From: Amphiscolops sp. MND2022
Lineage: Eukaryota
Direction of reading: 5' to 3'
DNA length: 64,000 nucleotides
NCBI GenBank assembly: GCA_964187785.1
Contig: OZ076409.1
Span: 22,260,001-22,324,000 of the forward strand
How positions within the stretch are numbered: the first letter of the stretch is position 1; the number at the start of each line of letters is the position of its first letter. Position numbers and translations under genes: made by a program. Below the pieces are notes generated by a model. That model saw only the letters and a list, made by a program, of their open reading frames with translations. It did not search any database and was not told the DNA's origin. Of the stretch, positions 10,141 through 60,950 are shown in pieces.

Positions 10141-13100
10141 GTGAGTTGAAAGTATTTTTTTGAGGTGAAAAAAGTGTTTGCACAAATCCTCTGAATTATC
10201 TGCAACTTTCTTTAGTCAAGTTGTTGTATTCTATTTGAAGCTTGTAAAAGAATCGTTGTATAAAATTCAACTGTTCTCTAGCTATCTCTTTTTTCATTAT
10301 CATCAAGTGATAAACTTCATCTGCTCTTAAGTGGCAGGCAGGTACAAAACTATAAATAGCATCAATATAACAATAAGGCAGACTAATTAGTTTTTGTTAG
10401 AGTTTGTCTGTCCTCTACATTCCCCCCCTTACTATTGGCTGATGATCGGCCAATGGGGTTGTTGGAATGTTTGTTGTGGCGGATATTCCTCCACTGGTCC
10501 AGTTTCTGGTGGACGGTTGACCGTTCCTGGCAGCTTTGTTTGTTCCGGTTCGCGATTGGCCGTAACGTCTGAATATGTGTGTCTGACCGGTCTAGAGATC
10601 GTCTTCTTTCCCCTCCGGTTGTGCTGTTGGTTGATCCGGTGTTGCCGAATTCAGTCTGTTTACGGTGTTTCCTGTAATCATGACAAATGGGATTATTATA
10701 TCTAATGATTGGGTTGGTTTTTGTCAGTCTCATTGATCTGCGAATGGGTTCCTTTTCTTCCTTGTCAATTTCAGTGATTGAGCTCAAATTGCTCACTAAG
10801 TCTAGATCAGAATTTTCAAAGTTATCTTCTAAAGCGTTCTGGTTGGAGTTATTATTAATAAGTACCTTACCGTTTTCATCTCTGAGAAAAAGTTCTTGGT
10901 CCGCGTTTTCGGTGTCGGTTATGGCACGGTCTATTTCCGTGTCCGTCATATTTGCTGTGACTATGGTTAGTGGGCCCGTTGTAGTTGCTGCTTGTGGAGA
11001 GTTTGAGGTTGTACGGTCTCGAACCAACTTTGGTCTGCCTCTCCCGATTGTGCCCGTTTTGATTGTTGTATTGGGTAGTGGTTCCGGGGTTTTTGGACTT
11101 GTTGTATCCATTAATGGCGTCTCTGACTCGCTGTGCGATTCGATTACCATCGTTCGTCTGTGTTTGGACGGTGATGTGATAAATCGGCCGTCTGGTCCAC
11201 GTGACCCGATCCCTCTGTTGTTCTGGTCCTGGTTAAAGTTAGAAATTGGTTTACTAATCATTTTCCTATGTAGGTGTAGTGATATCTTCGTAAAAACAAA
11301 CCAGATTAAAATCGTGGTTATTACACACTAGATCAACACATGACAACCTTAAACGAATAAAACATTAGATACAATAATATCAACACATATTAAACATTAC
11401 AACATAAGTTTATATCATCACAGTCTTCACCCCTTCGGTTAAGCATCATATGCGACCTTCTTAATACGCTGCCGCTGGCACTGCATAATATTCCCAACAT
11501 CCACGTCGGTCCACTTCCGGCTTTTAGAACCAAACAGAGGCTCCGTTGAATTTCCTGTTTCATGAACGTCTTCCGGACATTGTGGCGCTTGAATTCGTGC
11601 ATCATCACCAACACCTAAATTAACATCTGAAACCTGATGGTCAACACGATGACCATTTATATTGTCGTCTCCTCTTGTTTCTTGTGGAGCCTGCGCAACA
11701 AATGTCTGAGGCTCGGGTAAATCAGGGGACTGGGGCTCATCATATGGTGCCTTATCAGAGATGCTCGAGGTTCCTTCCACTGCTGGAGCTAAATCCCGAG
11801 TTGAAACGGTGTCCACTCTTCCATTGGGGTACTCGATTCTCGAAAAGTAAGGTGAAATTGTCTCAACTAGCCGTACAGGCGTGACAGGTGTGTCCAACTT
11901 AAGCGCATCACGCCTTCGAACGTAGATCATTGAACCAGGAGTTGTCAAATACGCAGGAATATCAATACCAGTAATTGACGCTCTAGGGAATGAAAGAAAT
12001 CTTTCATGTGGTGTCTGATTTGTCGCTGTACACAGAAGTGCTCGTGTGCTAGCCAAAACCGTCGGAAGAACTTGTTCCCAGCTTTCTTTCGACAATCCGT
12101 GAGTTGCCAAAGCCAGCTTCAGCGCGCGGATGATCGTCCCATTCTCTCGCTCGCATTGACCATTAGCTTGAGGTCTGTAAGGTGTCGTGCGACTTTTAAC
12201 CACATTATGACGCAAAAGAAACTGTTTGAATTCCTGACTTTCAAACTGTGTGCCCCTATCAGAGTGTACCGATGAAGGTGACCCAAACAGTTCAAAGAGA
12301 GATTGTATGTGTTTAACAACTTCTTTCGCGGAAATCGTTGAGCATGGGAAAGCGAACGGGTAACGTGAGTATTCATCGACAACAACAAGTAGAAACCGAT
12401 TGCTGGTATTAGTTGGAAGTGGCCCCACAAAGTCAATCGAGAGTCGTTCCCAAGGTCTAGTTGCATGTACCAGTTGCCCCTGTGGCGGTTTAAAAAATTT
12501 TGGTTTGATCTCGGGGCAGATCTTGCACGATTGAGTAACCGTCCTCACATCATCAACTGAATAGGGCATATTCTTACTCTTAACATAATGACAGAGGCGC
12601 GCAATTCCTGGGTGGCAGAGTTGAGAATGTAAAATGTGCAACCGTCCCAGATCTCGAACAGCTGCACTACGAGACAAGGCGTCACAGACATCATTTAAAG
12701 GCCCTGGTCGATAATTGATTTTGTACTTATACTCTGAAAGTTCAAGCCGCCAACGAAGAACCTTCTCGTTCTTGATTTTGTTGCGACTGTTCATGTCGAA
12801 GAGGAAAGAAACGACTTTCTGATCAGTAATAATCTCAAATTCTGGAACAGCATGCAGTAAGTGTCTCCAACGTCTACAACACTCTACAATGGCAGAGGCT
12901 TCGCGCTCAACAACTGACTGATTCTGCTCGGAACGCGATAAGACCCGAGAGAAGAACGCAACCGGCCGTCCCCTTTGAGAAAGGGTACCTCCAAGTGCTC
13001 TCGCTGAAGCGTCAGTTTCTATGACTAGAGGTGCATCGGGCGTCGTAGAAGCTAGAACAGCTTTACTCAAGAGCTTCTTCAATTCGTCTATCACCAACTT

Positions 13101-16100
13101 TGAATTCTCCGAAAGTTGTCCAAGCTTCAAAAGATGCGGCCTGTCAGATGAAATTTGCTGGATAAGTTCACTTGAATTCGGAATCCACTTAGCGTAATAT
13201 GCAAAGAAGCCCAGTAGCCGTTCCAGTTGTTTGACAGACGTTGGCAATGGATACTCCATTAATGCTTTAAATCGAGCTGGATCGGGTTTGAGTGTACCAT
13301 CAGCAATTCTATACCCTAAAAATGATATCTCGCGAAGTGAAAACTTGCACTTCTCCATATTGAGTGTCATGTTGCACTTCTTCGCAGCCTCCAGGAAAGC
13401 AGCCAAGTTCCTGTCGTGATGTTCTTGGTCATATCCACCTATAAGAACATCATCTAAATACGCGAAAGTGTCTTCCAACTCGTTTTCATCAATAAATGCG
13501 TCCATGTTTCTCTGGAATATTGCCACGGCATTAGTTAGCCCAAAACACAGACGCGTGAATTCAAAAAGTCGACCAAAAGCTTCAAATGCAGTTAGGGGAT
13601 AGTCTTTTGCATTTAACTTAATTTGATGGTATGCACTTTTAAGATCAATATGTGAGAAAACTTTATACTTTGAAACTTTCTGCAACAGATCTTCAATGTT
13701 TGGTATGGGATAACTATCCGTGGGTGTATACTTATTGATTGTCTCAGAGTAGTCGAAAACAAGTCGAGGCTTTGTATCATAATTTATGACAAAGCACTGA
13801 GCACGCCATGGTGATTGACTTTCTTGAATAACTCCTTCTTCGAGTAATCTCGCTACTTCTTTCTTAATAAATTCGGGGTGCCTCACAAACCGACGCTTCG
13901 GAGCGACAAGTGGCTTTAATTTGCTAGTATCAACATTTGGAACAATGTCATAAGGCTTGCACTTCATCGTTTGTACGTAACACATCTTGAATGTCACTGG
14001 AGGTCGTGGCCCACTAAACGTCAAGTTAACACTCGAGTGGGTTGAAAGTACATCTAAACCAATAATAATAGGCGCAACCAAAGATGATACTACTGTGAAA
14101 GTCGTACAATATTCTTCGCCGTTCAGATGAAGCGAACCCTTATAAACACCCAACGTTTTTGCAATAGACGAATCAGCCAGTGTGATATTCGTTGGGTTGG
14201 ACGCTGCAAAACAACGTCTGTTGTCGGTAAGTAAGGCCTCGTGAACGTATGAAACATCTGAACCGGTATCCAGCAGAGCTCTAGTGGCGATGCCGTCCAG
14301 ATGAACCGGAACTATATTGGAGTTGTCTTTTCGAGCCGTGGCAAGAATGACGGCCAAAGAATTAGTATCTTCCGCAGCCTCCCCAGATGAATCTCTTCCT
14401 TGCTGAGTTTGTTGAATCGCGGCATTCTTCGACGTTCCGGTAACCGCACGACAAACAGAAGCCCAGTGGCCATTCTTACCACACTTCCGGCAAGTTGACG
14501 TTCTCGCAGGACATGCACGACGATCATGTCGAGGGCTTTTGCCACACCACCCACATCCGCCGGTGGATGGTTGGAAGGACTTGGCAGCAGCCACTGTAGG
14601 ATCTGGAAAACTAGAGGATTGTGTTTGTGTGAGGGAGCAGCTGTCCCCCATCGCAGTTTCCATCGTGATCGCTATGTTCAGCAGGTCGGACAAAGATGAT
14701 GATGGAGATTCAAGAAGTCGTTGTCGAATTTCTGGCGACTTCACTCCAGAAACAAAGGCATCTGTTAGAAGTAAATCTCTATGCTGAGCAGCTGTCAGGC
14801 TCGGTGTCGGGCATTTCCTTGCTTGAAGTTTGAGCTCACACATGTACTTCTCGACTGTCTCTTCTGGTTGTTGTCGCCGCATTCGTAGTTTGTGTCTAAG
14901 ACGTCCTTCCACTGCTGGAGCTAAATCCCGAGTTGAAACGGTGTCCTTTCTTCCATTGGGGTACTCGATTCTCGAAAAGTAAGGTGAAATTGTCTCAACT
15001 AGCCGTACAGGCGTGACAGGTGTGTTTAAGGTTGTCATGTGTTGATCTAGTGTGTAATATTGTAGTGATATCTTCGTAAAAACAAACCAGATTAAAATCG
15101 TGGTTATTACACACTAGATCAACACATGACAACCTTAAACGAATAAAACATTAGATACAATAATATCAACACATATTAAACATTACAACATAAGTTTATA
15201 TCATCACAGTAGGATTCTTCCATTTGGTGTGGTTATGGTATGTTTAGTGCCCGATACTGCTAATTGTGGTTTATCGGAATATGCACTTTCGAATTTATTA
15301 CGTTTGTGTTTTTTTCTAAGAAGAAAAATGGATAGTTACTAACTGCTTTTGCGTTTTTCTTCGTCTTCATTGGTAGCTGGTCGGACACACCGCCGGATCC
15401 ATTGAACGAGTATACCGGCAAGGTATCTGGTTTTGCTGAAACGGAATTTTTTTGTTAATTTCTCTAGGTTATCAAGTTTCAGTAGGTTACTTATTTCCGT
15501 GTTAGGTTTCCGTCCATAGTGTAATTCAAAGGCGGATTTTTTAAAACGCGAGTGTGGTGTTTTTCTCATTACGTCTAGTGATAGGTCCAGCGCTTTGCTG
15601 AAGCGTTCCCCGGCTTTAATGTTCGTTAGCAGATTTTCCTTCAGTATTCTGACCCCCCGTTCCACTAAACCGGTGGGGATATGGATATACGGTGTCCCGT
15701 ATATTAGTTTGATATAGTGTTCTTTACAGAAGTTTCTAAATGAGCGTCCCGTAAAGGCCGTAGCCTTATCGGTCCTTATCGTCTTAGGGACTCCATTTAA
15801 TTGAATGTACTGTTCAAGAAATTTTATCGCCGTTTCGCCATCGGTAGACGTACAGAAGCTTGCCGCTGGCCACTTACTAAACCGGTCCATGGATAGTAAA
15901 ATGTGAAATCGACGGTTGTCTACCGTGATTGGTCCGATAAAATCCAATTGAATTTCTTCGTTTGGATTTTCTAACCGGGGAAGGTGGTTCTTTTCCGTAC
16001 TTGGTATATCAGATTTAATACTCTTACCGGACATTTTGCAGGGGATACATGACTCGCATTTCTTTTGAATTGCCTCGGTCATCTTCGGCCACCAGAAATG

Positions 16101-19100
16101 TCTTGCGGCAGTTGTCATCTTATTGATGGCGGGGTGGCCTTTGTGTAGTAGGCTAATGATCGTTGTTCGGAGATTCTTTGGGACAATTATTTTGTCTTCG
16201 ATGAATACTAGACCGAACCGGCTTGATAGTTTCTTCTTGTGGGTTATGTATTCGTCTGGGATTTGGTCGTATTGCTGGCGTTCGAGGCAAACCAGTGTTT
16301 TTAGTAGGACCGGATCGTTGGTTGTCTCGCTCATTAGCAATTGCAGGTCTGTGGAAAAATTCTTTTCGGCTTCTCTCACCGCCTGTTCCAGGTCCCATTT
16401 GTTTGTTTCTTGTGCCAAGACTTTTGGAGCGTGCCCCATTTTGACATATTGCACGCTTTTAACTCCAACGTAGCGTGCCCAGTTTATTGCGGGTACTTCT
16501 AGGATTGACGGGTCTTGGTCCGTCTCCGACTCGATTTCGCCCTCTTCCATTGGCATGGGAGCGAACAATTCATGTCCCGGTGTAGCTGTCGATGGTTCGG
16601 GTAGATCTTGGTATTGGGCCGGCGTTGGTCTATCCATTTCCCAGAATGGATCTACGGTCCACTGTTCGGGTCTTCTTGTTTGTGGCTGGTATCCACCGCT
16701 GAGTTGCGGGCCGATTCGTTGTCTCAAATCGCCTGCCTTGTATGATTTGTTGGAGTCTCTCTTCTATTACCCGTCTTTCGTTCCGTAAGAACTTGGGCTC
16801 ATGATACTTTTTCCATTTTCCTCCGGTCATACGATAAATACCGGGTTTTACTATTTCTTTCCACCGTTGAATTAATTCAGTGGTTTCTGCTGAGGAGTCT
16901 ACTGCTGCCAGATTATCAATTGTTTTGATATCCATTTTGAAACTCTCTAAAGCGTTGCGTGTTAATGTTGAGCTGTTAAGGCAATCAATGGCGGTTTGTT
17001 TGCGCGCGTCCTGTGACCGCGGTTTGTTATTTGCTTTGCGTCCGTTTTCAACCGTCTCGCCTTCTGATTGGTTAACGTGGTTGCTAAGGCAACCGTGCTT
17101 GGAGATAAATTTGTAGTGCGGGATGACGTTATTGATGACGTATTCTTCGTCGTACGCTTCGTCTGTTTGCGGCGGCGCTGACGGATTTCTGCTCAAGTAA
17201 TCCGTAAGTGCTAAATGTTTGCCTGCGATATGGCTTACATTAATAGTGAATTGTGCCAACCGGTCCAGCCACCTTGTCAGCCGCGCGCTGTACGTTTTAT
17301 TGGATCGGTTTCGTTTAATCAATGGTTCGAGTGCTTGGTGGTCCGTGAGTAATTTAATCGGTTTACCGTAAACGTATAATCGGAAGTATTCTAATCCCCA
17401 GACTACGGCTAATAGTTCGAGTTCATTGATTGCGTATTTCTTTTCGGTGTCTGAGAGAAATCGACTTGCGAAACCTATTGTTTTTAAATTTCCGTCTGGT
17501 TGTTCTTGCCAGAGTGTTGCGCCGAGGCCTTTTGTACTGGCGTCGGTTGTTATTATGTTTGGGTAATCCGAATTGTAATGAGCCAGACACGGTATTTCCG
17601 TGATTTTTTGCTTGAGATTTTCGAATGCTGCTGTATGTTCTTCCGTCCTTATCCATTCGTTGTCTTTCTTTAATAACTGTCTCAAACTGTTTGTTTGGGC
17701 GGAGAGATTGTTTATGTACTTGGATAGATATTGGATGGCTCCCAGAAATGATTTTAATTCTTTTTCGTTGTTGGGTTGTTTCAGATTTTTTATCGCCATC
17801 AGTTTGTCTTGTAACGGTCTAATACCGTTTTGGTCTATTTTATGACCGATCCATTTTTTCTCGGATTTAAAAAATTCGGATTTGTTTCCGCTGAGTCTGT
17901 AACCGGCATTTTCCAGCCGGGCTAGAACTTCTATTAGTTCCTTTTTATGTTGTTCTTTTGATCCTTTGGTTACGATGATGATGTCGTCTAGCCATGCTGG
18001 GTGTTTATTTTCCAGTGTTTGGTCGATTTTCTCTTGAAAAATGGTCGGTATATCCGCCAACCCGTAGAATCCCATTAGGAACCGGTAGTATCCGGTAAAA
18101 TCCCCGCCGGTTACGGCGAAAATACATAGGTTTTGGGCTTCTTTGGATAGGATTAGCTGGCCATATGCGTAATCCAGATCGAGTTTTGATGTCCAGATTT
18201 CGTCTGCTGGGCCATCTGCAATTTTTCTTGAGATTCTGGAAATTAATTCCTCCATGTTGGGCATTTGTGCCTTTCTTTTGATGGTAATTTCGTTGAGTTT
18301 CCGTGAGTCCAGTGCAATTTTTATCGACTAATCTTTCTTTACCGTGATTACGGCCGGGCTGACAAAGCAATTTTCATCAATATTGTTCGCTTTTTCGACG
18401 TGGCCTTGTTTTATGAGTTTATTTATTTCTTTCCCGACCGATTGTTGTAAGTGGATCGGTATTGGTCTCCCTTTTTGCTGTATCAGTCTTGCGTCTTCTT
18501 TCAATTGTATTTTTACCTCAATTCCATTCACGGTGTGGTTTTCGTTGAAGAGTTTTTAAAATCTTTTCTTCAGGACGGTTACGTCCGAGTCCTCGATTAC
18601 ATGGTTTACCTGTGGATCGATTTTATTGGTGTCGAGTGTTATTCCCAGTTTCTCCATCCAATCCAAGCCTAATAAGGGGTTAGTTTTCTTTGTTGTTATT
18701 AGGACTTCTAAGTTGTTCCGTTTCCCGTTTATTTCGACTAATGCAGTTGTTTTTCCCTCAAATTTTATTCGGTTGTCGTTCACATCTCTGTATTCGATTC
18801 CAATCGGTCTTAATGGTGATGTACTGTTGAACTGTGACTTCGGTATTAAAGTTACCGGTGAGCCACTATCTATTATGAATTTGATTGGCCGATTGTTAAC
18901 CAATGCAGTGAGGGTGAAGAATTCTGGACCGTTCTTCTTTGTTTGGCGTGTTGAATGGATCATTTGATTTACTGAATGGATTGTGTTTGGAGACCAGTCG
19001 TCTTCTTCCGCGCTGCTTGCCTCATCGTCCTGTACGTGGTTTATTCTTTTGTTTGTTCTGCAATATTTTGTGTAGTGTCCGATTTTTTCACATTTCATGC

Positions 19101-22100
19101 ACTTCTTTCCTTTGGCCGGGCATTCGTGTTGTCTAGACCAATTGGGTGCTCCACATCTGTTGCAATCTACTTTTTTGAATTTTGTCGTTTTTCCGACAAG
19201 TCTTTTGTATTCCTTGTTTTCCTTTTATTTAGGTATCTGATTTTCTTCTCTTCCTCTGTTTCGGGTGAGTCGTTTATTTTCTCGTACATGTATTCATGTA
19301 ATGCCTCGGTGATTGCCTCTATTGACATGTCACTTTTTCTAATTTTCTTTTTGAGGTCATAGTCACCTGTTGATTTTCCGATGACGGATAGGAATTTTGA
19401 TGCTAGAAGTTCTGCCGGGGTTATTGTTTCAAATTCGCAATTTTTCTCGACTTCTAGTATTCGTTTCCATACATCCGCCGCGGACTCTCCGTCTTCCCGT
19501 TTGAGGTCGAAGAAATCGGCTCTGCTGTGTTGAACATTTCTTTCCGGTGTGAAATGTAACCGGAATAATGTATATAATTTGTATAACGGGAGTGAGCTTG
19601 GTTCTCTTTCTCTAACCGTCTTGGTCATTTCCGTGATTGCGTTTTGTCCAATTGCCCATAAGAATATGTCCTTTATTTTCGTTTCCAGTTGGTCACGGTA
19701 TTGTGGTAATATTTCCTTGTTGTTTGTCATCTTCGATAAATCCAAGTATATACTGTACGAACTTTGTGGTGATCTTGTTTGGTGTGATCTTGTTTTTCCA
19801 ATGTTGGGATGGTTAATTTTTGTGTGCACGTCCGTTCATTGGTTTTATTGAGTGTGTCGTTTGGTAGCGGTTGGTCACTCGAGTGATTTCCCGCCGACGT
19901 CCTGTTGGTGGCTCCGTTCCGTGGAGTAGTGTTTGTGTTGTCGTTCATCTTTGGAGTTGATGTGCTTGTTCTTTAGTAACTCTACGGTTACACTGACTGC
20001 GCCATGTTGTATTCTATTTGAAGCTTGTAAAAGAATCGTTGTATAAAATTCAACTGTTCTCTAGCTATCTCTTTTTTCATTATCATCAAGTGATAAACTT
20101 CATCTGCTCTTAAGTGGCAGGCAGGTACAAAACTATAAATAGCATCAATATAACAATAAGGCAGACTAATTAGTTTTTGTAAGAGTTTGTCTGTCCTCTA
20201 CACAAGTAAATTCAATTTTATGTAGAATTGCTGAATCAGTCAACTCCAATGTTTGACGATTGAGGTTTTTGTTCAAATGCAAGATGATTTTTTTTCAGTA
20301 ATTGAGTTTTCTCAACTTTTGGCCTTGTGCGACTTTTTTGGCAAAAAACGTGTTGTCAAAGTGTACCCTTTTCACTTCTATAGGTATTTTAGGCCTGAAA
20401 AATGCCTTGGGGGGGGGGAGCCTAAACCCCTTTTTTGAAGAAAAAAATTTGAACGGTGAGCTATCATTTTAACGAACAAAATGTCTACATTTATTTTGCC
20501 AAAATCTGCTTTATCAACATGCACCAATTTCGCGTTGATACTTTAACCCGGAATCCTCACGAAGTCATAAAACTGGCATAAATCAATCAGAGATCCAAAA
20601 GAGTAAGAGAAACAGACTTTTCCAGCCACAATTCCAAAATTCAACTGGTTAAGAAGCAGGTCTAAAACGAAGAAACTGAAAGAAGTCTAAGATTGCTGAA
20701 TTAAGTTTAAGGCGTCGGCACATAGTGTGGTAATATGCTAATTGGCAAGAATCGACAGAAAAACTTCCAAACTGAAAAAATCAACGGTTTAAACGACTTG
20801 TTTCTGAAATTCAGACTTTTCCGCATTAACCGAAAAACTATCAAGCAACTAACAAATTTTATTTCAGACTATTGGAAAAATCCAAAGCCAATGGAGTGAA
20901 CAAAACAGATTTTTGAAAGTTTTCACAATTTTCTGTCAATTTTAAACGACTTGTTTCTGAAATTCAGACTTCTCCGCATTAACCGAAAAACTATCAAGCA
21001 ACTAACAATTTTTATTTCAGACTATTGGAAAAATCCAAAGCCAATGGAGTGAACAAAACAGATTTTTGAAAGTTTTCACAATTTTCTGTCAATTTTAAAC
21101 GACTTGTTTCTGAAATTCAGACTTTTCCGCATTAACCGAAAAACTATCAAGCAACTAACAATTTTTATTTCAGACTATTGGAAAAATCCAAAGCCAATGG
21201 AGTGAACAAAACAGATTTTTGAAAGTTTTCACAATTTTCTGTCAATTTTAAACGACTTGTTTCCGAAATTCAGACTTCTCCGCATTAACCGAAAAACTAT
21301 CAAGCAACTAACAATTTTTATTTCAGACTATTGGAATAATCCAAAGCCAATGGAGTGAACAAAACAGATTTTTGAAAGTTTTCACAATTTTCTGTCAATT
21401 GTAAACGACTTGTTTCTGAAATTCAGACTTTTCCGCATTAACCGAAAAACTATCAAGCAACTAACAATTTTTATTTCAGACTATTGGAAAAATCCAAAGC
21501 CAATGGAGTGAGGAAAACAGATTTTTGAAAATTTTGACAATTTTCTATCAATTTTCAAATCACAAAACTGTTTGATTGAAAATCTTGAGAATCAATGAAT
21601 TAACCCGATATTTCAATACTCAAACTTTCTGAGCTATCTTCCGTAGGGTTGCTCTAATTGCATTTCAGCTCATAAATTTCGTGTTTTTTAAGCTGTTATT
21701 TCAGAATTTATTGTTCATCCTTTTCTCCTGATTTACTGCAATCGATGACATCAACCATTTCGGGATGAAGTCAGTCAGTCCACTGTCTATATATATATTT
21801 TTGATACTCTGCATTCCGGACTCCTTTTCACACAAATTGCCTCGAAATAGGTCATGGATTTATAATTTTACCTTGGGGTTCGCGAGATTTTCATATTCTC
21901 TTTGGAACTGGAAAATCTAAATTTTGAACTTTTTGCTGTTGTTTTTTTGACATGCGAAATCACCAAGCTTGTGTATTTTCTAGGTGTGAACTTGCAAATA
22001 GACGAAAGTGAAGGATCGGCCAAAGCAACCATTGCCATAGTTCCGAAAGATCAGAAAGGTAGGAAAGACTCGAGTAGCAGTAGCAGTTCCTCGGATGAAG

Positions 22101-25100
22101 AAAAAGTCAAAGACAAAAAAGCACCGGGAAAGACTACCGTCAAAACTGAAGAAGTTACTCTGGTCACTGGAAAACCAAGTGGCGCATGCTTCATTTGCAA
22201 CCAAGTTAGAAAATTCAGGATCGAAATAGCTGTTCAATGAATTCAATATTTTTAGACCAATATTGCAGTAAAACAAATTATCAACAGGTCCCCTACCGGA
22301 GTTGAAAGGGTGCGACTTTTGCCAATAATATGAATTTCAAGGATAGATTTTGGGCTTTTGAGAAAATTTCGAGCACCTTTCATCGATTTATATTTTTGAA
22401 TGTGGAACTCCAACATAAGTTATTTGTATTTTATAGAGAAGTCAATCCTGATCAACACACTTATAAAGTTTTCCATGCTGCGTTCATGAATGCAGGCTAA
22501 TATTTAAAAAATACATGGAAAATTCAGAGTTCCTGCATGGAAAAGTTTGTAGAACTTGCAAGCTCTAAAAAACTTAGAGCATATCCATGCTTAAAAAAAC
22601 ACTTCCTAACAGTTTACAGAATTTCTTAAGAAAACAAGAAAGCAACAAAACAAGAGCTGCGATCAAACTTTTGAACACATTCAACTGAGATTCTTCATTG
22701 TTATCAACGCTTGGAAACTTTAGGAAATAGATGGTACGTACTACACGTGTGGGGAGCTGAAGTACCACGAGAAATGCATCACGTGCCACGAGTGCGGCAA
22801 GGCTAACAGGAGTGACTGGCGAGAGTGTGTGATCTACCCCTCCGATGACGGAAACTCCATCAACTTCTTCTGCCCAGACTGCAATCTCAGCAGGGCCAAG
22901 AAATGCCACAAGTGTGAGGAACCCATTCTAGGTTGGTGATCACTCATCACGAAACTAGTAGAAAAGCAAACCTGGGTGAAATTAAGGTTGCCGCATATTC
23001 CTCCGATTTCAATCATCACAATGGAAAATGATCTCTACTGTCCTATTTCTCACCAAATCCCCATTAGGAGCCATAGCATTTTCCGGTAGCAATGCGTGCC
23101 ACAAATAGTAATTTTCAAAATTCAATTCGAAAACTACAAAGTATGTGATTTGAAGCTGCACTTTTGCTAGTAAGTCCGACATTTTAATCCTCAACTATCA
23201 ACACGTGTAAGTTAGGATCTTGAATGCTATAATGGACAATTGACAGACCCGAAAACAAAAAAGCGTTAGCGTGCCACAAATAGTAATATTCAAAATTCAC
23301 TTCGAAAACTACAAAGTATGTGATTTGAAGCTGCACTTTTGCTAGTAAGTCCGACATTTTAATCCTCAACTATCAACACGTGTAAGTTAGGATCTTGAAT
23401 GCTATAATGGACAATTGACAGACCCGAACACAAAAAAGCGTTAGCGTGCCACAAATAGTAATATTCAAAATTCAATTCGAAAACTACAAAGTATGTGATT
23501 TGAAGCTGCACTTTTGCTAGTAAGTCCGACATTTTAATCCTCAACTATCAACACGTGTAAGTTAGGATCTTGAATGCTATAATGGACAATTGACAGACCC
23601 GAAAACAAAAAAGCGTTAGCGTGCCACAAATAGTAATATTCAAAATTCACTTCGAAAACTACAAAGTATATGATTTGAAGCTGCACTTTTGCTAGTAAGT
23701 CCGACATTTTAATCCTCAACTATCAACACGTGTAAGTTAGGATCTTGAATGCTATAATGGACAATTGACAGACCCGAACACAAAAAAGCGTTAGCGTGCC
23801 ACAAATAGTAATATTCAAAATTCAATTCGAAAACTACAAAGTATGTGATTTGAAGCTGCACTTTTGCTAGTAAGTCCGACATTTTAATCCTCAACTATCA
23901 ACACGTGTTAAGTTAGGATCTTGAATGCTATAATGGACAATTGACAGACCCGAAAACAAAAAAGCGTTAGCGTGCCACAAATAGTAATATTCAAAATTCA
24001 CTTCGAAAACTACAAAGTATGTGATTTGAAGCTGCACTTTTGCTAGTAAGTCCGACATTTTAATCCTCAACTATCAACACGTGTAAGTTAGGATCTTGAA
24101 TGCTATAATGGACAATTGACAGACCCGAACACAAAAAAGCGTTAGCGTGCCACAAATAGTAATATTCAAAATTCAATTCGAAAACTACAAAGTATGTGAT
24201 TTGAAGCTGCACTTTTGCTAGTAAGTCCGACATTTTAATCCTCAACTATCAACACGTGTAAGTTAGGATCTTGAATGCTATAATGGACAATTGACAGACC
24301 CGAAAACAAAAAAGCGTTAGCGTGCCACAAATAGTAATATTCAAAATTCAATTCGAAAACTACAAAGTATGTGATTTGAAGCTGCACTTTTGCTAGTAAG
24401 TCCGACATTTTAATCCTCAACTATCAACACGTGTAAGTTAGGATCTTGAATGCTATATTGGACAATTGACAGACCCGAACACAAAAAAGCGTTAGCGTGC
24501 CACAAATAGTAATTTTCAAAATTCAATTCGAAAACTACAAAGTATGTGATTTGAAGCTGCACTTTTGCTAAAAAGTCCGACATTTTAATCCTCAACTATC
24601 AACACGTGTTAAGTTAGGATCTTGAATGCTATAATGGACAATTGACAGACCCGAAAACAAAAAAGCGTTAGCGTGCCACAAATAGTAATATTCAAAATTC
24701 ACTTCGAAAACTACAAAGTATGTGATTTGAAGCTGCACTTTTGCTAGTAAGTCCGACATTTTAATCCTCAACTATCAACACGTGTAAGTTAGGATCTTGA
24801 ATGCTATAATGGACAATTGACAGACCCGAACACAAAAAAGCGTTAGCGTGCCACAAATAGTAATATTCAAAATTCAATTCGAAAACTACAAAGTATGTGA
24901 TTTGAAGCTGCACTTTTGCTAGTAAGTCCGACATTTTAATCCTCAACTATCAACACGTGTAAGTTAGGATCTTGAATGCTATAATGGACAATTGACAGAC
25001 CCGAAAACAAAAAAGCGTTAGCGTGCCACAAATAGTAATATTCAAAATTCAATTCGAAAACTACAAAGTATGTGATTTGAAGCTGTACTTTTGCTAGTAA

Positions 25101-28100
25101 GTCCGACATTTTAATCCTCAACTATCAACACTTGTAAGTTAGGATCTTGAATGCTATAATGGACACAATTGACAGACCCGAAAACAAAAAAGCGTTAGCG
25201 TGCCACAAATAGTAATATTCAAAATTCACTTCGAAAACTACAAAGTATGTGATTTGAAGCTGCACTTTTGCTAGTAAGTCCGACATTTTAATCCTCAACT
25301 ATCAACACGTGTAAGTTAGGATCTTGAATGCTATAATGGACAATTGACAGACCCGAAAACAAAAACGCGTTAGCGTGCCACAAATAGTAATATTCAAAAT
25401 TCAATTCGAAAACTACAAAGTATGTGATTTGAAGCTGCACTTTTGCTAGTAAGTCCGACATTTTAATCCTCAACTATCAACAGTTGTAAGTTAGGATCTT
25501 GAATGCTATAATGGACACAATTGACAGACCCGGAAACAAACGTCAAGATGTCAAGGTATGGCTAGTCATACAAAAATGGATTGCTTCAAAGGTTCTCAAG
25601 AGAAAACTGTTGATGATAATGCATCATCGCTGAAGGACCAAAGGTTTCTACTGACTTTCGAAGAAACGTCAAAGGTTTCCATTCAAATTCAAAGAACCTT
25701 GTTCTCTTTCGGACATGTTTGTCAAAATTGTTCATTTTTAGCAGTAGCAGATTTTTATGCAAATGACACTCGGGGACTTCTTTGTCAGCTCGGCTATCTT
25801 TTGTTTCCATTCAGATGTGCACAGGGAAGAAATATATTTTCGTCATACGCGTTACTTGTGCTTAGAAGTTTGATTTTACAGCGATGGTTGTTTCTGTTCC
25901 CGTGTGAACCCCTGAACCTCCGTAAAAGAACGCAGATGGTTCACACGTAGTTGAAAATTCCTTGAAAATATGATTATGTCCTTGCTATGGTTGTAGCTGG
26001 GTCCGCATAAATCGTTGAGTTTCGAACATTTGAACCTGTATTCTTTTGTAGGATTTCGTTACTATAACTTCATCACCTTTTTCAAAGGAATATAGTTTCT
26101 GCGCGGGAAAAATATATTTATTGGACGTTCCTTTGGAGGTCTTTCTAAGGTTGTATTGTTCTTACAGGACCTTCAAAGAAATGCATTACATCCATGGACC
26201 TTGAAAGATTTTTCAAGGAATTCCTTCTTGAAAACTTAGGAAAGTAATATAAATTTGAACGAAACTCAAACAAATTTTGGGATCCCAGTATTTGTCCTCC
26301 GAAACCGTAAATGAACCTCGCCAAGGTTTGCCATCATTCCATGTTCATAAAGTATCAAGGATTTTCCACACATTATCACTTATTATTGTTATTATAATCA
26401 TTATTTAACCTGGCCGGGAAACCCGAGAACAAACACTCTTGGCAATTTTTAAAAAGCTCCAGATATTTGTGTACCAGAGTACTCTCAGTAGCTAGTTGTT
26501 TTGTCTTTGAACACTGTGGTTATTCCCACGAAACAAAACTTTTAAATTTGTACCACATGTGCATAAAATTTTCAAATTTGAAAAAATACATATTGAATTT
26601 TTGGATAAATATTTTAAAACAGCGTCAGAATTCACTTGATTGGTAAGTACTGTATAGCTTACTGATTCGTCGTTGAACTCTGAACTCCATAAAATGGCCA
26701 TTGATCGGAAAACATTGGCAGTTTTTAGTCGACGCTCCATGAAGTGAAACGCGACTATTATAGTAACTAACTTTTTGAAATTTTTTTTCAGTCCACGCGA
26801 ACTGACCAATATAGTTCTTAAAAGTTCTACTGAATTTTTGGTTTCAAATTGAATCATTTGGCCTGGCGAACTGAACCAAAAAAGTGTTTTTCTTGTTTTT
26901 CGGCGTAACACATGATACCCGGAGAGACTAAAGGGTCCGTCCCCTTTCAGTTTTTTTTGGCTTTGTGAGACTTTTTTTCGAAACAACAGTCCTCTAAGGG
27001 TCCCCCTTCAATTTTCGGATGTTTTGCGACAAAATAGATGTTGAAAAATCCCACAGGGTCCCCCTTTCAGTTTTTTTGGCATTGTGAGACTTTTTTTCAC
27101 AAAACAATTTTTCATCAAAGGGTCCTTCAATTTTTTGATGTTTTGCAACGATTGATGATAAAAAATGCGAAAGGGTCCCCCTTCAATTTTTGGCTCTTTT
27201 CTGTTCCGTCCCACCACCATTTTTTTTGGAAAATTAGTGAAAATCTGATAACAAATAGACTTGAATACAAACCAGAAAGCTTCAATTTTAGGTTTATTGT
27301 CAGGGTGATAGTTTAGGATTCAGATGCAAACTTTATTCACACTTTTTCCCTATGTAGTCACGCATTTTTGAAGAAATCAACAGCTTCCTGTTTTGAGTCA
27401 TCAATAAACACTTGATACGAACATAATTATAGTCAAAATGTGTGAACAATGTTTTGTTCAAGCAAATCAAGTGCTCTGATAACTGACGGTAACTTCCTGT
27501 TATGAAAGAAGGTTTTACTTTTAATTAGGTTAGTCTAAAGTCTAAAGTTCTTAAAGAAGTTTACTTTAAAAAATTTTGGTGGTGGGGGGGGGGTGTTTGC
27601 AACAGAAAAGAGCCCAATATTTTGATGTTTTGCAACAATCCTTTGATACTTTGAAGTCATTTTGCTATTTTTGAGCGTTAAATAATGGCGCCGTCTTGGG
27701 CCGGTCCCGGCTTGTTTGGCTATTTTGGATGCAAGTTTTGTGCGTTTTGGGGCACTTTTCATTCCGAACGTTCATTGAAACGACAAGTTGATTCATTTCT
27801 ACGAAGACGTCTGCTACGGACCTATTCTCTTTCTTGGCACTTGAATTCGATGAACACCTTTCTTTTGGAAACAGAAGGACCAGAAACAAAAAAAACGGCC
27901 ACTCGTCTTTTTACGTTTCATTGTTCCTTTTTATCATGAAATTGCCGGTTTCGATGAAAGGATAACAGAGCGTTAATAACGCCGATCCATGGTGCTGTGC
28001 AAAACCTCACAATATTATTTTCCACCCCCACATTTTATTGAGAGGAAAATCATCATCTATGTAGCGTTTTATTCTGCCTAGTTTCCGCTTTATTATATGG

Positions 28101-31100
28101 GTATTTTACTCACCGTGACCCAGTTGGTAGTGTGTCCGCCTTGCAGACAGGAAGTTGTGGGTTCGAACCACGTGGGTTCGAAGTCGGGCTGGAGCATGAA
28201 AGTTTTGCAGCGGAAAATATCTCTGTGCTTAGCGGGCGTCTTGTTTTTAGTTCCATGGATTATCATTTCATAACTTTCGAATTTTTTTTTATTGTGGAGA
28301 CGGTTAGAATGAGAAATAATCAATGTGAATGCAATAATAAGTGTAATTTGACCGACTGAATGTAGTTTGGCCAGATTTTCAGTGACATCAAATAGAGCTG
28401 AATTCCAAAGAGGAAACATTTTTAGGAGTCGGAAAAAATTTTCGACTACTTATGCAATCGTGCTGTTTTTTTTTGTTTTTTTTCTCCCGACCTTTTCATG
28501 AAAATTTCAAATTTCTCAAAAACTGTCCATACGATTTTCACGAAATTTTGCACAGTCATTCAACACCCAATAGGGCCCCTGCGTGTGCAAAGGCATCAAA
28601 ATCGTATGGCTGGGATGTGAGAAACAGCCAAAATTAGCCCAAAAATGGCCAAAAAACAGCCATTTTTCGACTTTTTTCGATTTTCCCAAAAACTGTCCAT
28701 ACGATTCGAACAAAAGTTTCTACAGTCATTCTACACCATATTAGAGTCCTATATGTGCAATGGCATCAAAATCGTTTGGCTGGGATGTGAGAAACATAGC
28801 CAAAATTAGCCCAAAAATGGCCAAAAAACAGCAATTTTTCGACTTTTCTCGATTTTCTCAAAAACTCCATGCGATTCGAACGAAATTTTCTACAGTTATT
28901 CTACACCATATTAGAGAACTATATGTGCAATGGCATCAAAATCGTATGGCTGGGATGTGAAAAACATAGCCAAAATTAGCCCAAAAATGGTCAAAATAGG
29001 GCCATTTTTCGACTTCAGAAGGAAAAAGACCTAAGCCGACTCCTTTACCGCACATGCGGCTCTGGTTCTTGTTCCTAACCCTAGTTGGAAAAATTCACAT
29101 CTTGTGCAAAATTCGTACAAAACCTCTTGTAAGAAAATGCATAAATCTTACAAAAATCTTACAAAAACTTGCATTCTTCCACTAGAGGAAATACTGAAAA
29201 AAGTTGTTGCTAGCCTATTAATCAGAAAATTTTCTGCGAGCGATTATCAATTCCATTCCCATATTCTCAACCTTAGCCTTTCCCAACAAAAGGATCCAAC
29301 CTCTCTCTGAAAACAGTGATTTCAGACGTTATTCCAGTGAAATACGATGTTTTTAGCTCCTATTCCACCAAAATACGGTGATTTTAGAGGTTATTCCACA
29401 AAAATACAGTGATCTTACACGTTATTCCAAAAAAAATGATTTCAGGCGTTATTCCTCAAAGATAGTGAATTTAGACGTTATTCTATCAAAAAACAATGAT
29501 TTTAGACGTTATTCCAGTGAGATACGGTGTTTTTAGATCTTATTCTACCAAAACAGTGATTTTAGACGTTATTCCACAAAAATACAGTGATTTTAGACGT
29601 TATTCCCAAAAAAGTGTTTTTTGGCGTTATTCCTCAAAAATAGTGAATTTAGACGTTTTTAGTCGGCGTTTTTCTAGGGAAAAGTGCCCGACACTTACAG
29701 TGGCTAGTTTTTTTCCTTTTTTCGTCAGACTAAAATCTCACTCTGATTGGGCCACTTTTCTTACAATCGAAACTACTAAAACTACTACCATAAGGCCAAA
29801 TCCGGTCAGCGGAAATTAGTGCAAAAGGATCCCCCTTTCATTTTTTACTATTTTAACGTAACCTACAAAACCGGACGAGACTAAAGGGTCCCCCCTTTCG
29901 ATTTTTTTTTCGGCATTGTGCGACTTTTCCGAAATTTTTCATGTCCGAAAAGGGGGGCCCCTTCGAGTTTTTTGATATTTTGCAACTGAATGATTGTTAA
30001 TAAATCTGAAAGGGCCCCCCTTGTACATTTTTCGACACTATGCGACATTTTCTGAAAGAAAAAAATTCAAAAATTTCAAGTTTTTTTTCAAACAAAGTCT
30101 TTCGCGCTTTTTGAGCCTTAGATATAGCGCCGACTTTAGACGTTCCCGTCTTGTTTCACCAAAATACGATGATTTTGGATCTTATTCCAACAAAAAATTT
30201 AATCTAGACCATTTCAATCTAAAATTTATGACACTCTTCCAAAATTGGACCATTTCCATCTAAAATTTACGGTATTATTCCAAATTTGGACCATTTTCAT
30301 CTGAATATTATGACAATCTAACCCAAAATCTAAACCCAAAATCCTACCAACAAGCGGCTTCAGTAAACGCGATGCCGGAAAGCGTCCTTGATGGTACCCG
30401 GGTCATCAAGGTAACCCTGTTATAGATAGACTTTTAATTCAGATGTTATTCGAAAAAGACACAAAATGGGTCCAGAAAATCTTGAACGAATTTTTGGTCG
30501 AAATAACTTATCGCATTTTTTGTAAGAATTTCTTACAAATAGATGCAAATTTTGCAAAAATGTTATCAGACTCTTGTAAGAAATGTTCAACACTGTAACA
30601 AACTTGCAAAATTTGCGATTTTCATTCAAACTCGTAAAATTGTGAGAAATGCATAATTGGTAAAAATTTAGGACAAATTTTGCAAAATTTGTGATTCTGA
30701 AAAACTAGGGAATGGAAAATTCGTTCTGAAAATTCATTTGGAAATTGTAATTTTGAACAATCCAAGCCACTTTTTTTCTAATCATGAAAAAGTGTTCAGA
30801 CACATTGTAACTTCAAAATATGAGATCCTTGAAAGTTTTGAATTGCATCTTAATATAATATGAACTCAATTAACTGATTACAAGCTGGCAGAGCTTGCTC
30901 AACACGTTTAAAATTATCTAAACCGAAAAGAAAAATAATCGGTTGAACGGTTAACCGAAGACACCTAAAAATTAAAATCTCAAAAAGTTCCGATAAAAAC
31001 AAGGATGAAAAATTCATTGAAGTCAAATTTAATTCAGTAGTGTCAAAAATAAACGGCGTCTGATCCTCACAGGCTGAAGCCCCTTAATCTATAAAGATTT

Positions 31101-37100: not shown

Positions 37101-40100
37101 GTCGTAGCATTTTATTTAATTCATATTTTATTGTAGTTAGAATCTAGTATTTCTGTGAAATTCAATTTTTCGTCTTCAAATTATATCGTCCTAAAGCTCG
37201 TTCGGCTATACAACCTACCTCCGTCCGATTCATTTCTGTGTTGTAATGAAATGTTATTTCAGTTGAAATTGCATAGGTTGAAATGACAGAAATTAAAATC
37301 TCTTTTAGAGAACTTGCTGATTAGGTGCGTCACAAAGTAATATTTATGATTCCATGCATGTCCTTGTATGGAAGCAACATTAAACGTTCGTACGGGACCA
37401 AGTGTTCTAGAATTCTATAGAAGCATCGGAACGTAACAAGTTTTTCAAGATATGTGATTGCGTCAGGTGAACATGCGAACACGGCATTTCCTGAATGAAA
37501 CATTCTATGATAACACGTTTTTGAAAATCAGCAGAAGCTATAATTTTGCAGGTTTGAACATTGTTTCGTTTCCTACATCAGGATTTTTTACGCTTGTTCC
37601 TTTTTAAACCATCTATAGAGCACTAAAAACAAGATTGTTGTTCAACTTATTTAGTTTAGACTATCATGGGTGGCTACAACTCAATCAAGGAAGACTCTGT
37701 TGATTCGGGAAAACTGTTTTTCCACGATAAATGTTTCATCTGCATCTTCTGTGGCCAAAACTTGAACGATGTCGACATAGGGGGCAAGACAGACGACAAG
37801 GACGTGTACTGCAAACCATGCTATCTCGAGAAGTATTGCGAAAAGTGCACCCGTTGTTCAGCTGCTCTTATCGGTAAGTTGATGTCACATTGCAGTGAAG
37901 TACCAAGAAACAAGCAGAAAATAGAAAACAAAAAGGCAACAAGGATAGCATTTTTTCATCTTATCATAATTTGTCCGTTGGGATATGAACTCAAGAATTC
38001 GGCCTTTGATTGATTGGTACATGATCGCTTCTATGCTTCTCTAGAGAGTGATTATCCAAGCACTCTACTTATTGATCCAATGACTCATATTGGGTCATCG
38101 ATGCTTCGAACTCGTTCTTGCATTCCAAGTCACACAAATTTGGAATTCAAAATATGCTTTTACCTTGTCAAACCAAGCCCACTAAAGGTCAATAAAGATC
38201 ATGTTGCCATGGGTACTGCAGCCGAAAGAAGGAGCGGATAATTTGGTAATAACACTGACGTAAAAACTCCTGTTTAAAGTTATACTAGCTTAGTATTTCG
38301 TTATAACTGAATATGGTCGCAGGCAGCAACACCCAGTACTCTAAAATTTTTACCCAAAATTACAACATCCGTAAAATTGTCAATTCGAGGTATCTCATCG
38401 ACCAAGTCACAATTTTAAGCAACCTTTTTCGGAAAGTGGTAACTAAAATAAAAGATTGAAAAAATCTTGAGTCAAATTAATTCATCTCAGTCTAAGTAGT
38501 CAAACTGCGCAAAATTTGACCAAATGAGGAAAAAGTAAACAAGGTTGACAGAATCAAGTTGTTTTCACACTGAGCAAAATTCTAACTTTGATACCTGCAA
38601 AACCCGCCTTGCATCAATTCCAATTAATTGGGATTGAAAGATAAGGGCGTGCAAATGAACAAGCAGTTCGAATAATTTTCAAATGATTGACCGTTATCAA
38701 AGTTGGGTTCCGAAAAAAGCACAAGTAAGACGAGGCAAGCGCTACAAATCTAGATCTATTTTGGTCAATGCAGCCGCACTGCAAGTTTTTCTCTAATGGG
38801 CCTTTGAATGTAAACCAAGAAAATCTGTATGTTGAATGGTGGCAAGAGAACTTGATTTTATCCGTTACAATCTACAAAATATTCACCCTGGAAAAAACTG
38901 GATTGTTAGATACATATAACAATGTTTAAATATATCTAACAAACCAGTTTTTTGTTAGTAGTACGTACCTCTTTTAGAAGTACGTACCTCTAAAAATTAC
39001 TTAATTAGTTTACTAATTAGTTAGTGTACACTAATAACTTTTTGATGTTGCTAACAACCAATCAGCGACAAGGCATATAGAATCAGGGACCGAATCAAAT
39101 CAGGCATCGCATCATGCAACGTTGCATATTCGCAATGGTTTTAGAGTAACACGATTCTGTATCAAGAGAAATGTATCGGTATACAATAATTTATTTACAG
39201 TTGCTTATTTACAATTTAAGCTTTAGATAACCGTCACGATCATGTTACAATGTTCATATGCTTTGCATAATACAATTTCTTACCAAAAAGTATTAGAAAA
39301 CACAAACATTTGTTCTTCAGAAAGTCTCCCAGTCAAACCTTTCACCGATAATCCTAAAAAACGTGTTGAGGTCCTGGGAAAAGTTTATCCTTAGGATTCT
39401 TTTGCCCTCTTCTGAGACCTCTTGGGGATAAGATGCATGACCCCTATTTGAGGGGAAACAGAAATCAGCGGGTCTGTAACAGTAGTAACCTTTGTCGTCA
39501 TTCAATACGAAGTCTTCTGCTTTCAATTTATGGGGCAAATTCAGAAAAGATTCCACCTTGGATATTGTGTAAGTGGGGTTTCTGGTCACCATTTTCTCAC
39601 CATCCAAAACTAAAAACTGCTCTCTGGGAAAGAACTGCAACCAGTGTTGGAAGTGTTTTCCGTACATGGACCAGTCTACGAAGGTATTGTCGTTTTTTAG
39701 CAAAATGTCTGTCAAATTGTTCACTTGCAATCGGCCATGGCGTTCTGAATGATAAACGTTCGAGATAGATCTACGCAACGGCTCTCTCACAATCAGAATA
39801 AATTTCAGCTTCTTGCCCAAGAATTTTTGGTAATCCAGAATGCGTTGCGGAGATGCGGGATCTGTGAAATAATTTGGGGTTTTTTCAATAGTTATTTGGT
39901 CTTCATACGAGGCAGGCATTCCTTTGAGGTACGCCCAGTATATTGGCTTGTAATCTGCCGCGTTGAAAAAATGCTGTTCTTTCAAGCAAGCAGCGACGTT
40001 GGGATGGTAAGAAATGAACTTCATAAGCGCCGTGGTTCCACATTTTTGAGACCCTACCACGATGACAGTGGGGTAATGGCTCATTTTAGCCCTGGGCGTG

Positions 40101-60528: not shown

Positions 60529-60950
60529 TTTGTAATTAAACGTTGCGCTGGATAGCAGTTCTTTCTTGTTGTAACATGTTTTTTGAAGCGTTGAATTGTC
60601 TTAAAACTGCTTAAAATTCAATGTATTTTTTTCAAGGAGTGAGAAAGAATCAGTCTTCATCAATAAAATGTTTGTAATCGGTACTGTTTTTTTGGATTTT
60701 GCCACCTATACAGTCTAGACGTTTTTTGGCAGAAGACATAAAACAGTTGGAGTCTTGAAATTGATTCTCCCATCCTGTCCGAAACGCAGCAAACTATATA
60801 TGTATTCGTTGCGCCTCAAAACTTTTTCTCCCTTCAAATCACAGTTCAGTTTTTTTTAAAGTCGCTGATTACATGTTTTACTACATTTTTGAGAGTTCAG
60901 ATACACAGTACTCTTTCCGTTTCAGAGTCTCATTGTTTTGACGAAAAAAG

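What the first reader, a model, noticed from the sequence alone, without database searches (positions are those of the whole stretch)
15024..15140. Gypsy element with no tRNA PBS: a perfect 36-nt self-complementary LTR copy in self-priming geometry
Seen: 1 nt inside the 5' LTR edge, 15024-15059 is the exact reverse complement of LTR bases 15105-15140 (45-nt loop), and there is no TGG-type PBS. On the element RNA, the 3' end of the LTR arm pairs with the base nearest the U5 edge, which is the orientation needed to prime minus-strand strong-stop DNA. The arm also supplies the ATG of the single gag-pol ORF. Known: Tf1/sushi-type chromoviruses self-prime using about 9-11 nt, whereas Mag-like elements use tRNA. 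Inference: either an independently evolved long self-priming system, or the footprint of one aberrant priming event copied into the PBS during reverse transcription.
Basis: partly seen in the sequence, partly recalled or inferred. Interest (0 to 1): 0.8.

Follow-up and report, generated by a model that had tools for sequence, protein, structure and literature searches.

The report
Copying-error fossil of self-priming retrotransposon
The 36-base mirror sequence is a one-locus rearrangement, likely a slip made while this jumping gene was being copied, whereas its sister copy and related families carry an 11-19-base site that pairs with their own end-repeat instead of a tRNA, so the group likely starts DNA copying with its own RNA.

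Summary
The 36-nt inverted copy is real, but it is not the family's primer site. The one sister copy in this assembly has only 12 nt of it, then a normal gag start. The junction occurs once in the genome. Four of 65 LTR-primer-site junctions in six families are over-extended (19, 36, 47, 116 nt), all with 5-bp target duplications; one is a palindrome ending exactly at the LTR start. These are likely reverse-transcription fold-back errors. The underlying feature holds: 31 loci here and 21 metagenome loci carry one base plus a short complement of their own LTR over the poly(A)-like signal, with no TGG, covarying by family (199 of 204 pairs), in a clade without chromodomain. Self-priming is inferred; no RNA data were obtained.

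The parts
15061..15208 (-). 5' LTR, 148 nt, TG...CA
   Evidence: identical to 11275-11422 and to both LTRs of the C6 sister
15105..15116 (-). LTR stretch that pairs with the family's normal 12-nt primer site; predicted self-primer
15105..15140 (-). LTR template of the 36-nt arm
15060..15060 (-). single A between LTR and primer site (A in 17 of 17 family representatives)
15048..15059 (-). normal 12-nt self-complementary primer-binding site, shared with the sister copy
15024..15047 (-). extra 24 nt of inverted LTR copy, this locus only; holds the ATG at 15038
14904..15025 (-). 122-nt copy of own integrase tail; shares 2 nt with the arm end; one tandem 2-nt change against the donor
14901..14903 (-). 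3 bases matching neither the integrase donor nor the sister's gag; gag resumes at 14900
11439..15038 (-). single frame, 1199 aa: chimeric start, truncated Gag with zinc knuckles, protease motif, RT, RNase H, integrase; no chromodomain hit
11772..11893 (-). donor of the 122-nt piece, 350 nt upstream of the 3' LTR
11423..11440 (-). purine-rich tract before the 3' LTR
11275..11422 (-). 3' LTR, 148 nt
15209..15213 (-). target-site duplication, upstream copy (CCTAC)
11270..11274 (-). target-site duplication, downstream copy (CCTAC)
10222..20202 (-). host Gypsy element into which this one inserted; frameshifted pol; TGG-type primer site after its 5' LTR

Best explanation
This is a young, rearranged copy of a compact Gypsy retrotransposon whose family has a 12-nt primer site complementary to its own LTR and likely primes reverse transcription with its own RNA; the 36-nt arm is likely that site over-extended by a copying error. 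Shown: the anatomy, the 12-nt site in the sister, the single locus, the same kind of arm in two other families, family-specific LTR/primer-site pairing. Inferred, normal cycle: the transcript likely starts about 11-13 nt before the end of the LTR arm; this piece pairs with the site after U5, would be cut free as in Tf1, and would prime the minus strand; the plus strand would copy it back, which regenerates the site from the LTR in each cycle. Inferred, accident: the plus-strand strong-stop DNA, ending in the site, likely folded back on its own LTR arm and was extended 24 nt into U3; it then jumped by 2 shared bases to the integrase tail on the minus strand, copied 122 nt, added 3 bases and jumped into gag. 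Integrase then inserted the product with a 5-bp duplication. The copy has lost the first 82 Gag codons and is probably a dead end.
For: Sister on C6: A + 12 nt complement + native gag start; three other proteins of the family's 90% cluster also have the native start. Junction pattern: 1 match in the genome. Of 65 LTR-site junctions in six families, 4 are over-extended, each beginning 1 nt after the LTR, each with a 5-bp duplication: 19 nt (L020), 36 nt (window), 47 nt (L218/L253), 116 nt (L252). L252 is a 266-nt palindrome whose inverted copy stops exactly at the LTR's first base and is flanked by a direct, not inverted, 5-bp repeat, so it was made before insertion. Three of four then switch into the element's own interior. 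Family-level pairing: 199 of 204 Watson-Crick pairs over 12 nt in 17 family representatives against a mean of 6.95 of 12 across families; 0 of 10000 permutations reach it. A G-C to A-T change on both sides within one family. 23 3'-LTR or solo-LTR flank controls score 5 or less. tRNA-type TGG sites appear only outside the clade. About half of Tf1 cDNA keeps a single-stranded primer-site copy at its 3' end (PMC11042837, passages), which is the substrate that fold-back needs.
Against: No RNA evidence: start site, cleavage and priming were not observed. The 17 representatives were picked because they show the pairing and are related, so the permutation test shows family specificity, not frequency. 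Two-sided changes arise automatically if the site is copied from the LTR, so they show templating, not selection on RNA structure. Five of the six families of this genome lack the AG that marks the 11-nt register in the others, so the start site is unsure. A hairpin has one integrase end; L252 needs an extra, unobserved step (second priming that unrolls it). Fold-back and copying of an over-long LTR-derived primer give the same DNA at three of the four loci. Family B counts rest on 40 scored of 297 candidates.
Confidence: 0.66

Rival explanations
1. Same family-level self-priming, but the arm is a copy of an over-long plus-sense primer (an RNA started further upstream in U3, or the 3' LTR copy of the RNA paired with the site and cut after the poly(A) signal), not a DNA fold-back.
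For: All four arms begin in exact primer register. The arm ends on the poly(A)-like signal, so it is present at the RNA's 3' end too. A primer bounded by the purine-tract cut would end exactly at the LTR start, as L252 does. Upstream start sites in U3 are known for Tf2 (PMC5341516, passages).
Against: An upstream-started RNA would not be expected to stop at the LTR's first base (L252). Normal copies keep only 11-19 nt, which a 3'-end primer does not explain simply. L020 has a patch of short pieces after the arm, some matching the LTR in either direction, more like repeated DNA-end realignment.
Confidence: 0.2
2. The arm and the 122-nt insert were made after insertion by microhomology-mediated break repair that used the 12-bp stem for snap-back synthesis.
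For: 2-nt microhomology, untemplated bases and a tandem substitution are also typical of such repair (own knowledge). The window copy's LTRs and target duplication would be untouched either way.
Against: All four arms start at the primer site; donors are only the element itself; L252 stops at the LTR start and has a direct 5-bp duplication with no element interior.
Confidence: 0.08
3. A heritable 36-nt self-priming variant with its own start codon.
For: The frame stays open through both junctions and the arm supplies an in-frame ATG. The 122-nt copy differs from its donor at 2 adjacent bases while the LTRs are identical, which could mean an earlier origin.
Against: One locus; first 82 Gag codons lost; ATG buried in a 36-bp stem; arm lengths differ at each event.
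Confidence: 0.04
4. Assembly artefact (chimeric or fold-back read).
For: Reads could not be examined.
Against: The exact 1199-aa chimeric protein is on record on a 526,742-nt contig, a different assembly unit from this 104-Mb contig (it may rest on the same reads). Clean target duplication; three like events elsewhere.
Confidence: 0.02

Closest known systems
Tf1/Tf2/Tj1 and the Tf1/sushi group of chromoviruses (self-primed Ty3/Gypsy)
   Same: No tRNA site; primer site right after the 5' LTR complementary to an LTR stretch; about 11 nt (Tf1: first 11 bases, cut between 11 and 12; PMC7175516, passages); single ORF.
   Different: No chromodomain hit in 18 of 18 clade proteins; short LTRs (79-268 nt) and about 4-4.7 kb; arm lies on the poly(A)-like signal 26-65 nt from the LTR end; nearest sampled neighbours use TGG sites; a short local hairpin after the arm rather than the two flanking duplexes of the Tf1 'pretzel' (not tested systematically).
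Tcn1 chromoviruses and TAR (Houba, Osr-1) Copia elements of plants, self-priming predicted from sequence (PMC6317226, passages)
   Same: Same diagnostic: at least 10 nt, 0-5 nt after the 5' LTR, complementary to the LTR. TAR shows that the trait arose more than once.
   Different: Other superfamily or clade, plant hosts.
Retroviral and Ty deletion-with-insertion products of faulty strand transfer, and primer sequence copied past the normal stop (recalled, no call)
   Same: Short microhomology, untemplated bases, loss of leader and gag, intact LTRs and target duplication.
   Different: The over-copied piece is the element's own LTR, not tRNA.
Self-priming animal Gypsy clade in earlier notes of this scan (e1-7857539 and others; unchecked AI notes)
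   Same: Site pairs with own LTR over the poly(A) signal; compact animal Gypsy elements.
   Different: This locus adds over-extended arms and a palindromic mini-insertion; a word search for these found no note.

Membership tests
Ty3/Gypsy LTR retrotransposon | LTRs with TG...CA, target duplication, purine tract | tested here: met
Ty3/Gypsy LTR retrotransposon | domain order protease-RT-RNase H-integrase; RT closest to Ty3 among solved structures | tested here: met
   (Ty3 E 2e-60)
tRNA-primed Gypsy | TGG-starting site 0-5 nt after the 5' LTR | tested here: not met
   absent in window, sister and 31 related loci; present in outgroups
Self-primed LTR element (sequence criterion of PMC6317226) | 10 nt or more starting 0-5 nt after the LTR, complementary to the LTR | tested here: met
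   12 nt in the sister, 0 of 1000 LTR shuffles; clade-wide
Self-primed LTR element (Tf1 mechanism) | primer is the 5' end of the transcript | not testable with these tools
   no sequencing run was listed; indirect only: AG at -11/-10 in 11 of 17 representatives
Self-primed LTR element (Tf1 mechanism) | RT/RNase H cut frees the primer's 3' end | not testable with these tools
   needs RNA-end mapping or biochemistry
Tf1/sushi chromoviruses | chromodomain at the integrase C-terminus | tested here: not met
   no Chromo family hit at E 0.05 in 18 of 18 proteins
Tf1/sushi chromoviruses | RT groups with Tf1/sushi | not tested
   no named chromovirus sequence could be fetched (one search found none); trees hold no such reference
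Tf1/sushi chromoviruses | three-duplex 'pretzel' leader | tested here: inconclusive
   four leaders folded: central duplex present; a hairpin directly after the arm in three of four; not compared with Tf1 itself
Mag lineage | RT groups with Mag/SURL/Gulliver references | not tested
   no named references in hand; paired zinc knuckles seen are a recalled Mag-like trait only; MolGy and Cigr-1 clades (PMC6238403, passages) are equally open
Heritable 36-nt primer system | same 36-nt site in sibling insertions | tested here: not met

The most novel reading that the evidence does not exclude
A widespread animal Gypsy clade gave up tRNA priming independently of Tf1/sushi and cuts its primer from the LTR stretch that carries the poly(A) signal, possibly from the RNA's 3' LTR copy rather than its 5' end; the over-extended arms (19-116 nt) and the integrase-inserted palindrome are fossils of a primer that reaches back through U3.
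Probability: 0.2. Interest if true: 0.82.

Novelty: new variant of a known kind. Interest (0 to 1): 0.55.

Why it matters
Self-priming is proven in fission-yeast Tf1 and predicted for its chromovirus kin and one plant Copia lineage. Here it is inferred for a chromodomain-less Gypsy clade with protein relatives in Hydra, a snail and several insects, next to tRNA-primed neighbours, which bears on how often LTR elements swap primers and escape control by tRNA fragments. The over-extended arms are direct DNA evidence that the primer site is templated from the element's own LTR at the reverse-transcription stage, and they show a cost peculiar to self-priming: the plus-strand end can fold back, wrecking about 4 of 65 sampled copies and even yielding a palindromic insertion. 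Annotation tools that look for tRNA sites will mislabel this clade.

Tried and rejected
Sequencing runs: none was listed, so reads and RNA ends were not examined. First metagenome scan with a single protein: nothing confirmed. Viral contigs: nothing with the clade alignment or with an outgroup protein meant to fetch chromovirus references. Atlas look-up gave no result. Three primary Tf1 papers were not held. Saci2/lennie was considered and set aside: that paper assigns tRNA primers to those families (PMC12471100, first part and passages); no sequence comparison was made. Splice-site or spliced-leader origin of the primer (T-rich tract + AG): not needed, since pairing runs through and past the AG on unspliced LTR (position 12 paired in 16 of 17) and the base before AG is A or G in 4 of 11. 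Conserved hairpin right after the arm: summed stems 71 against a shuffled mean of 52.7 (0 of 1000) but only 3 of 17 families are individually below p 0.05 and other offsets give 49-64: weak. No consistent TATA box about 30 nt upstream of the arm was seen by eye. The outer element's row in both trees is a long branch (4.1 and 5-6) and says nothing. The careful tree search did not finish; both trees are quick trees. The supplements of PMC6238403 were listed, not read; they might allow a clade name.

Full report
Observation. The inverted repeat is exact: 15024-15059 against 15105-15140, 36 of 36, 45 nt apart, and against 11319-11354. The element is on the minus strand, 3934 nt, with identical 148-nt LTRs (15061-15208, 11275-11422), a CCTAC target duplication and a purine tract. 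It encodes RT, RNase H and integrase in Gypsy order and is nested in a second Gypsy element that has a TGG primer site.

14904-15025 repeats the element's own integrase tail, 11772-11893, at 120 of 122 bases. After the LTR the order is: A, 12 nt, 24 more nt of inverted LTR, the 122-nt piece (2 nt shared with the arm end), 3 bases found in neither template, then gag.

The sister copy. An LTR search of the 1.07-Gb assembly gave five matches: this element's two LTRs, its arm, and two LTRs on C6. The C6 copy has the same four-way identical LTR, a GTTAC duplication, and after the LTR an A, the same first 12 nt, then a short leader and a native gag start. The two copies differ by 13 substitutions and a 2-nt indel in 3628 aligned columns; the indel breaks the sister's integrase frame. 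In the window copy 147 nt stand in place of 252 nt, and the first 82 Gag codons are lost. A 21-nt junction pattern matches once in the genome. In the protein collection the chimeric 1199-aa protein is on record on a 526,742-nt contig, and three other long members of its cluster have the native start. So the 36-nt form is a single event and the family's site is 12 nt, self-complementary, without TGG (0 of 1000 LTR shuffles give 12).

The clade. I fetched 60 of the 150 RT matches in the genome, mostly the closest. Of these, 31 had a readable 5' LTR junction carrying one of five further family-specific self-complementary sites, 3 had TGG sites, 2 were unusable and 24 gave no LTR pair at that size. 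For nine more distant RT loci read in wider stretches, six showed the 5' LTR end, all with TGG sites. Of 80 metagenome loci kept from 438 relatives, 24 had a flanking repeat; 21 show the same design (several are copies of one family; one has its LTRs inverted to the RT match), and 3 repeats are not LTRs. In 17 family representatives, chosen because they show the pairing, the spacer is always A, the arm ends 26-65 nt before the LTR end on an AATAAA-like word, and 199 of 204 positions pair over 12 nt, against a mean of 6.95 of 12 when arm and site come from different families (0 of 10000 permutations). Within one family a G-C pair is replaced by A-T on both sides. Pairing decays after position 12-15. 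AG stands 11 nt before the arm's end in 11 of 17, which fits an initiator and an 11-nt primer, but five of this genome's six families lack it. In quick RT trees the self-complementary rows lie on one side of a branch (99% and 96% SH-aLRT) against the TGG rows, with proteins from Hydra, Biomphalaria, a damselfly, a psyllid and moths or butterflies inside; primer sites of those named proteins were not seen. No chromodomain was found in 18 proteins. The trees hold no named reference clade.

The over-extended series. Searches with LTR end plus site for five other families and this one gave 65 junctions (12, 40, 6, 2, 3, 2; two pairs look like duplicated segments; family B had 297 candidates, 40 scored). 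Four are over-extended, each from 1 nt after the LTR, each with a 5-bp duplication: L020, 19 nt, then a patch of short pieces, then gag; the window, 36 nt; L218/L253, 47 nt, 2 unmatched bases, then the integrase core (1380-nt element); L252, 116 nt, to the LTR's first base, giving a 266-nt palindrome with TG...CA ends whose arms differ at 6 columns. 23 3'-LTR or solo flanks used as controls score 5 or less. Variable length rules out a 36-nt primer. L252 places the event before insertion: a copy made on chromosomal DNA would run on into the inverted flank, whereas a direct duplication follows.

Mechanism. Shown: all of the above anatomy. Inferred from Tf1 (first 11 bases pair with the site and are cut free: PMC7175516 and PMC4600332, passages; half of the cDNA keeps a single-stranded site copy at its 3' end and RT adds untemplated bases: PMC11042837, passages): the RNA's LTR arm primes the minus strand, and the plus strand copies it back. 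In a self-primed element that plus-strand end is complementary to its own LTR (a DNA fold of the sister's LTR plus site closes this stem, though the whole fold is not better than shuffles, z -1.39), so it can snap back, extend into U3 and then jump to the minus strand. I give this 0.66; copying of an over-long LTR-derived primer 0.20; repair after insertion 0.08; heritable 36-nt system 0.04; artefact 0.02.

Known and new. Self-priming is described for Tf1/sushi, and predicted for Tcn1 and TAR Copia (PMC6317226; bioRxiv 10.1101/2022.12.06.519325; PMC6934838; passages only). Nine searches listed no paper that, by title, abstract start or the passages I read, reports it for a chromodomain-less animal Gypsy clade; subscription journals and Repbase are not covered. 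PMC3601003 and PMC6238403 (passages) did not let me name the clade. This scan's notes, looked up after I had stated my reading, report the same clade-level signature on other genomes; they are not independent evidence. Look-ups by place, by sequence and for fold-back palindromes found nothing. It works like Tf1 by the sequence criterion; it is not filed as Tf1/sushi because the chromodomain test failed and the tree test could not be run.

Verdict. Observation partly confirmed (arm real, context incomplete); interpretation partly supported; new variant of a known kind; interest 0.55.

Noticed in passing
window 14900; L020 (element sense, 68 nt after the 5' LTR): Two independent rearrangements in different families rejoin gag within a few codons of the same motif (sister codon 83; about codon 79 in the other family). 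Unexplained; could be a pause site of minus-strand synthesis or chance.
   Followed up: partly
L252 (G000:C6, about 45765200-45765500): 266-nt palindromic insertion: LTR, primer site, inverted U3 to the LTR start, 5-bp target duplication, no coding interior.
   Followed up: yes
L207, L208 (G000:C4, about 64981200 and 64988100): 5'-truncated LTR plus 13-14 nt of primer site, then unrelated DNA, in a duplicated segment; resembles an inserted plus-strand strong-stop end.
   Followed up: partly
L050 (G000:C1:46544505-46552134): 5' LTR breaks off 2 nt after the arm's 3' end, close to the predicted cut site, and unrelated sequence follows.
   Followed up: no
L111, L080: Repeats that include LTR plus primer site plus gag start (tandem-like arrangements) in metagenome contigs.
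   Followed up: no
L118: LTRs, primer site and purine tract are inverted relative to the RT match; its site pairs over 19 nt, siblings L081/L129 over 13 + 5 nt.
   Followed up: partly
window 15209-15213 and L002 1498-1502: Both target duplications of this family end in TAC (CCTAC, GTTAC); two cases only.
   Followed up: no
L158-L175: Outgroup Gypsy families with 2-3.3-kb LTRs, 12-17 kb in all, sharing one TGG primer-site sequence; many near-identical copies with 1416-1420-aa frames.
   Followed up: partly
window 55527-59099, 23094-25540, 20788-21555, 28512-29015: Tandem arrays with 156-, 175-, 153- and 170-nt units, the first three 97-98% alike.
   Followed up: no
window 39317-40243, 59395-60528, 60942-61670: Open frames of 308, 377 and 242 aa outside the elements studied.
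   Followed up: no
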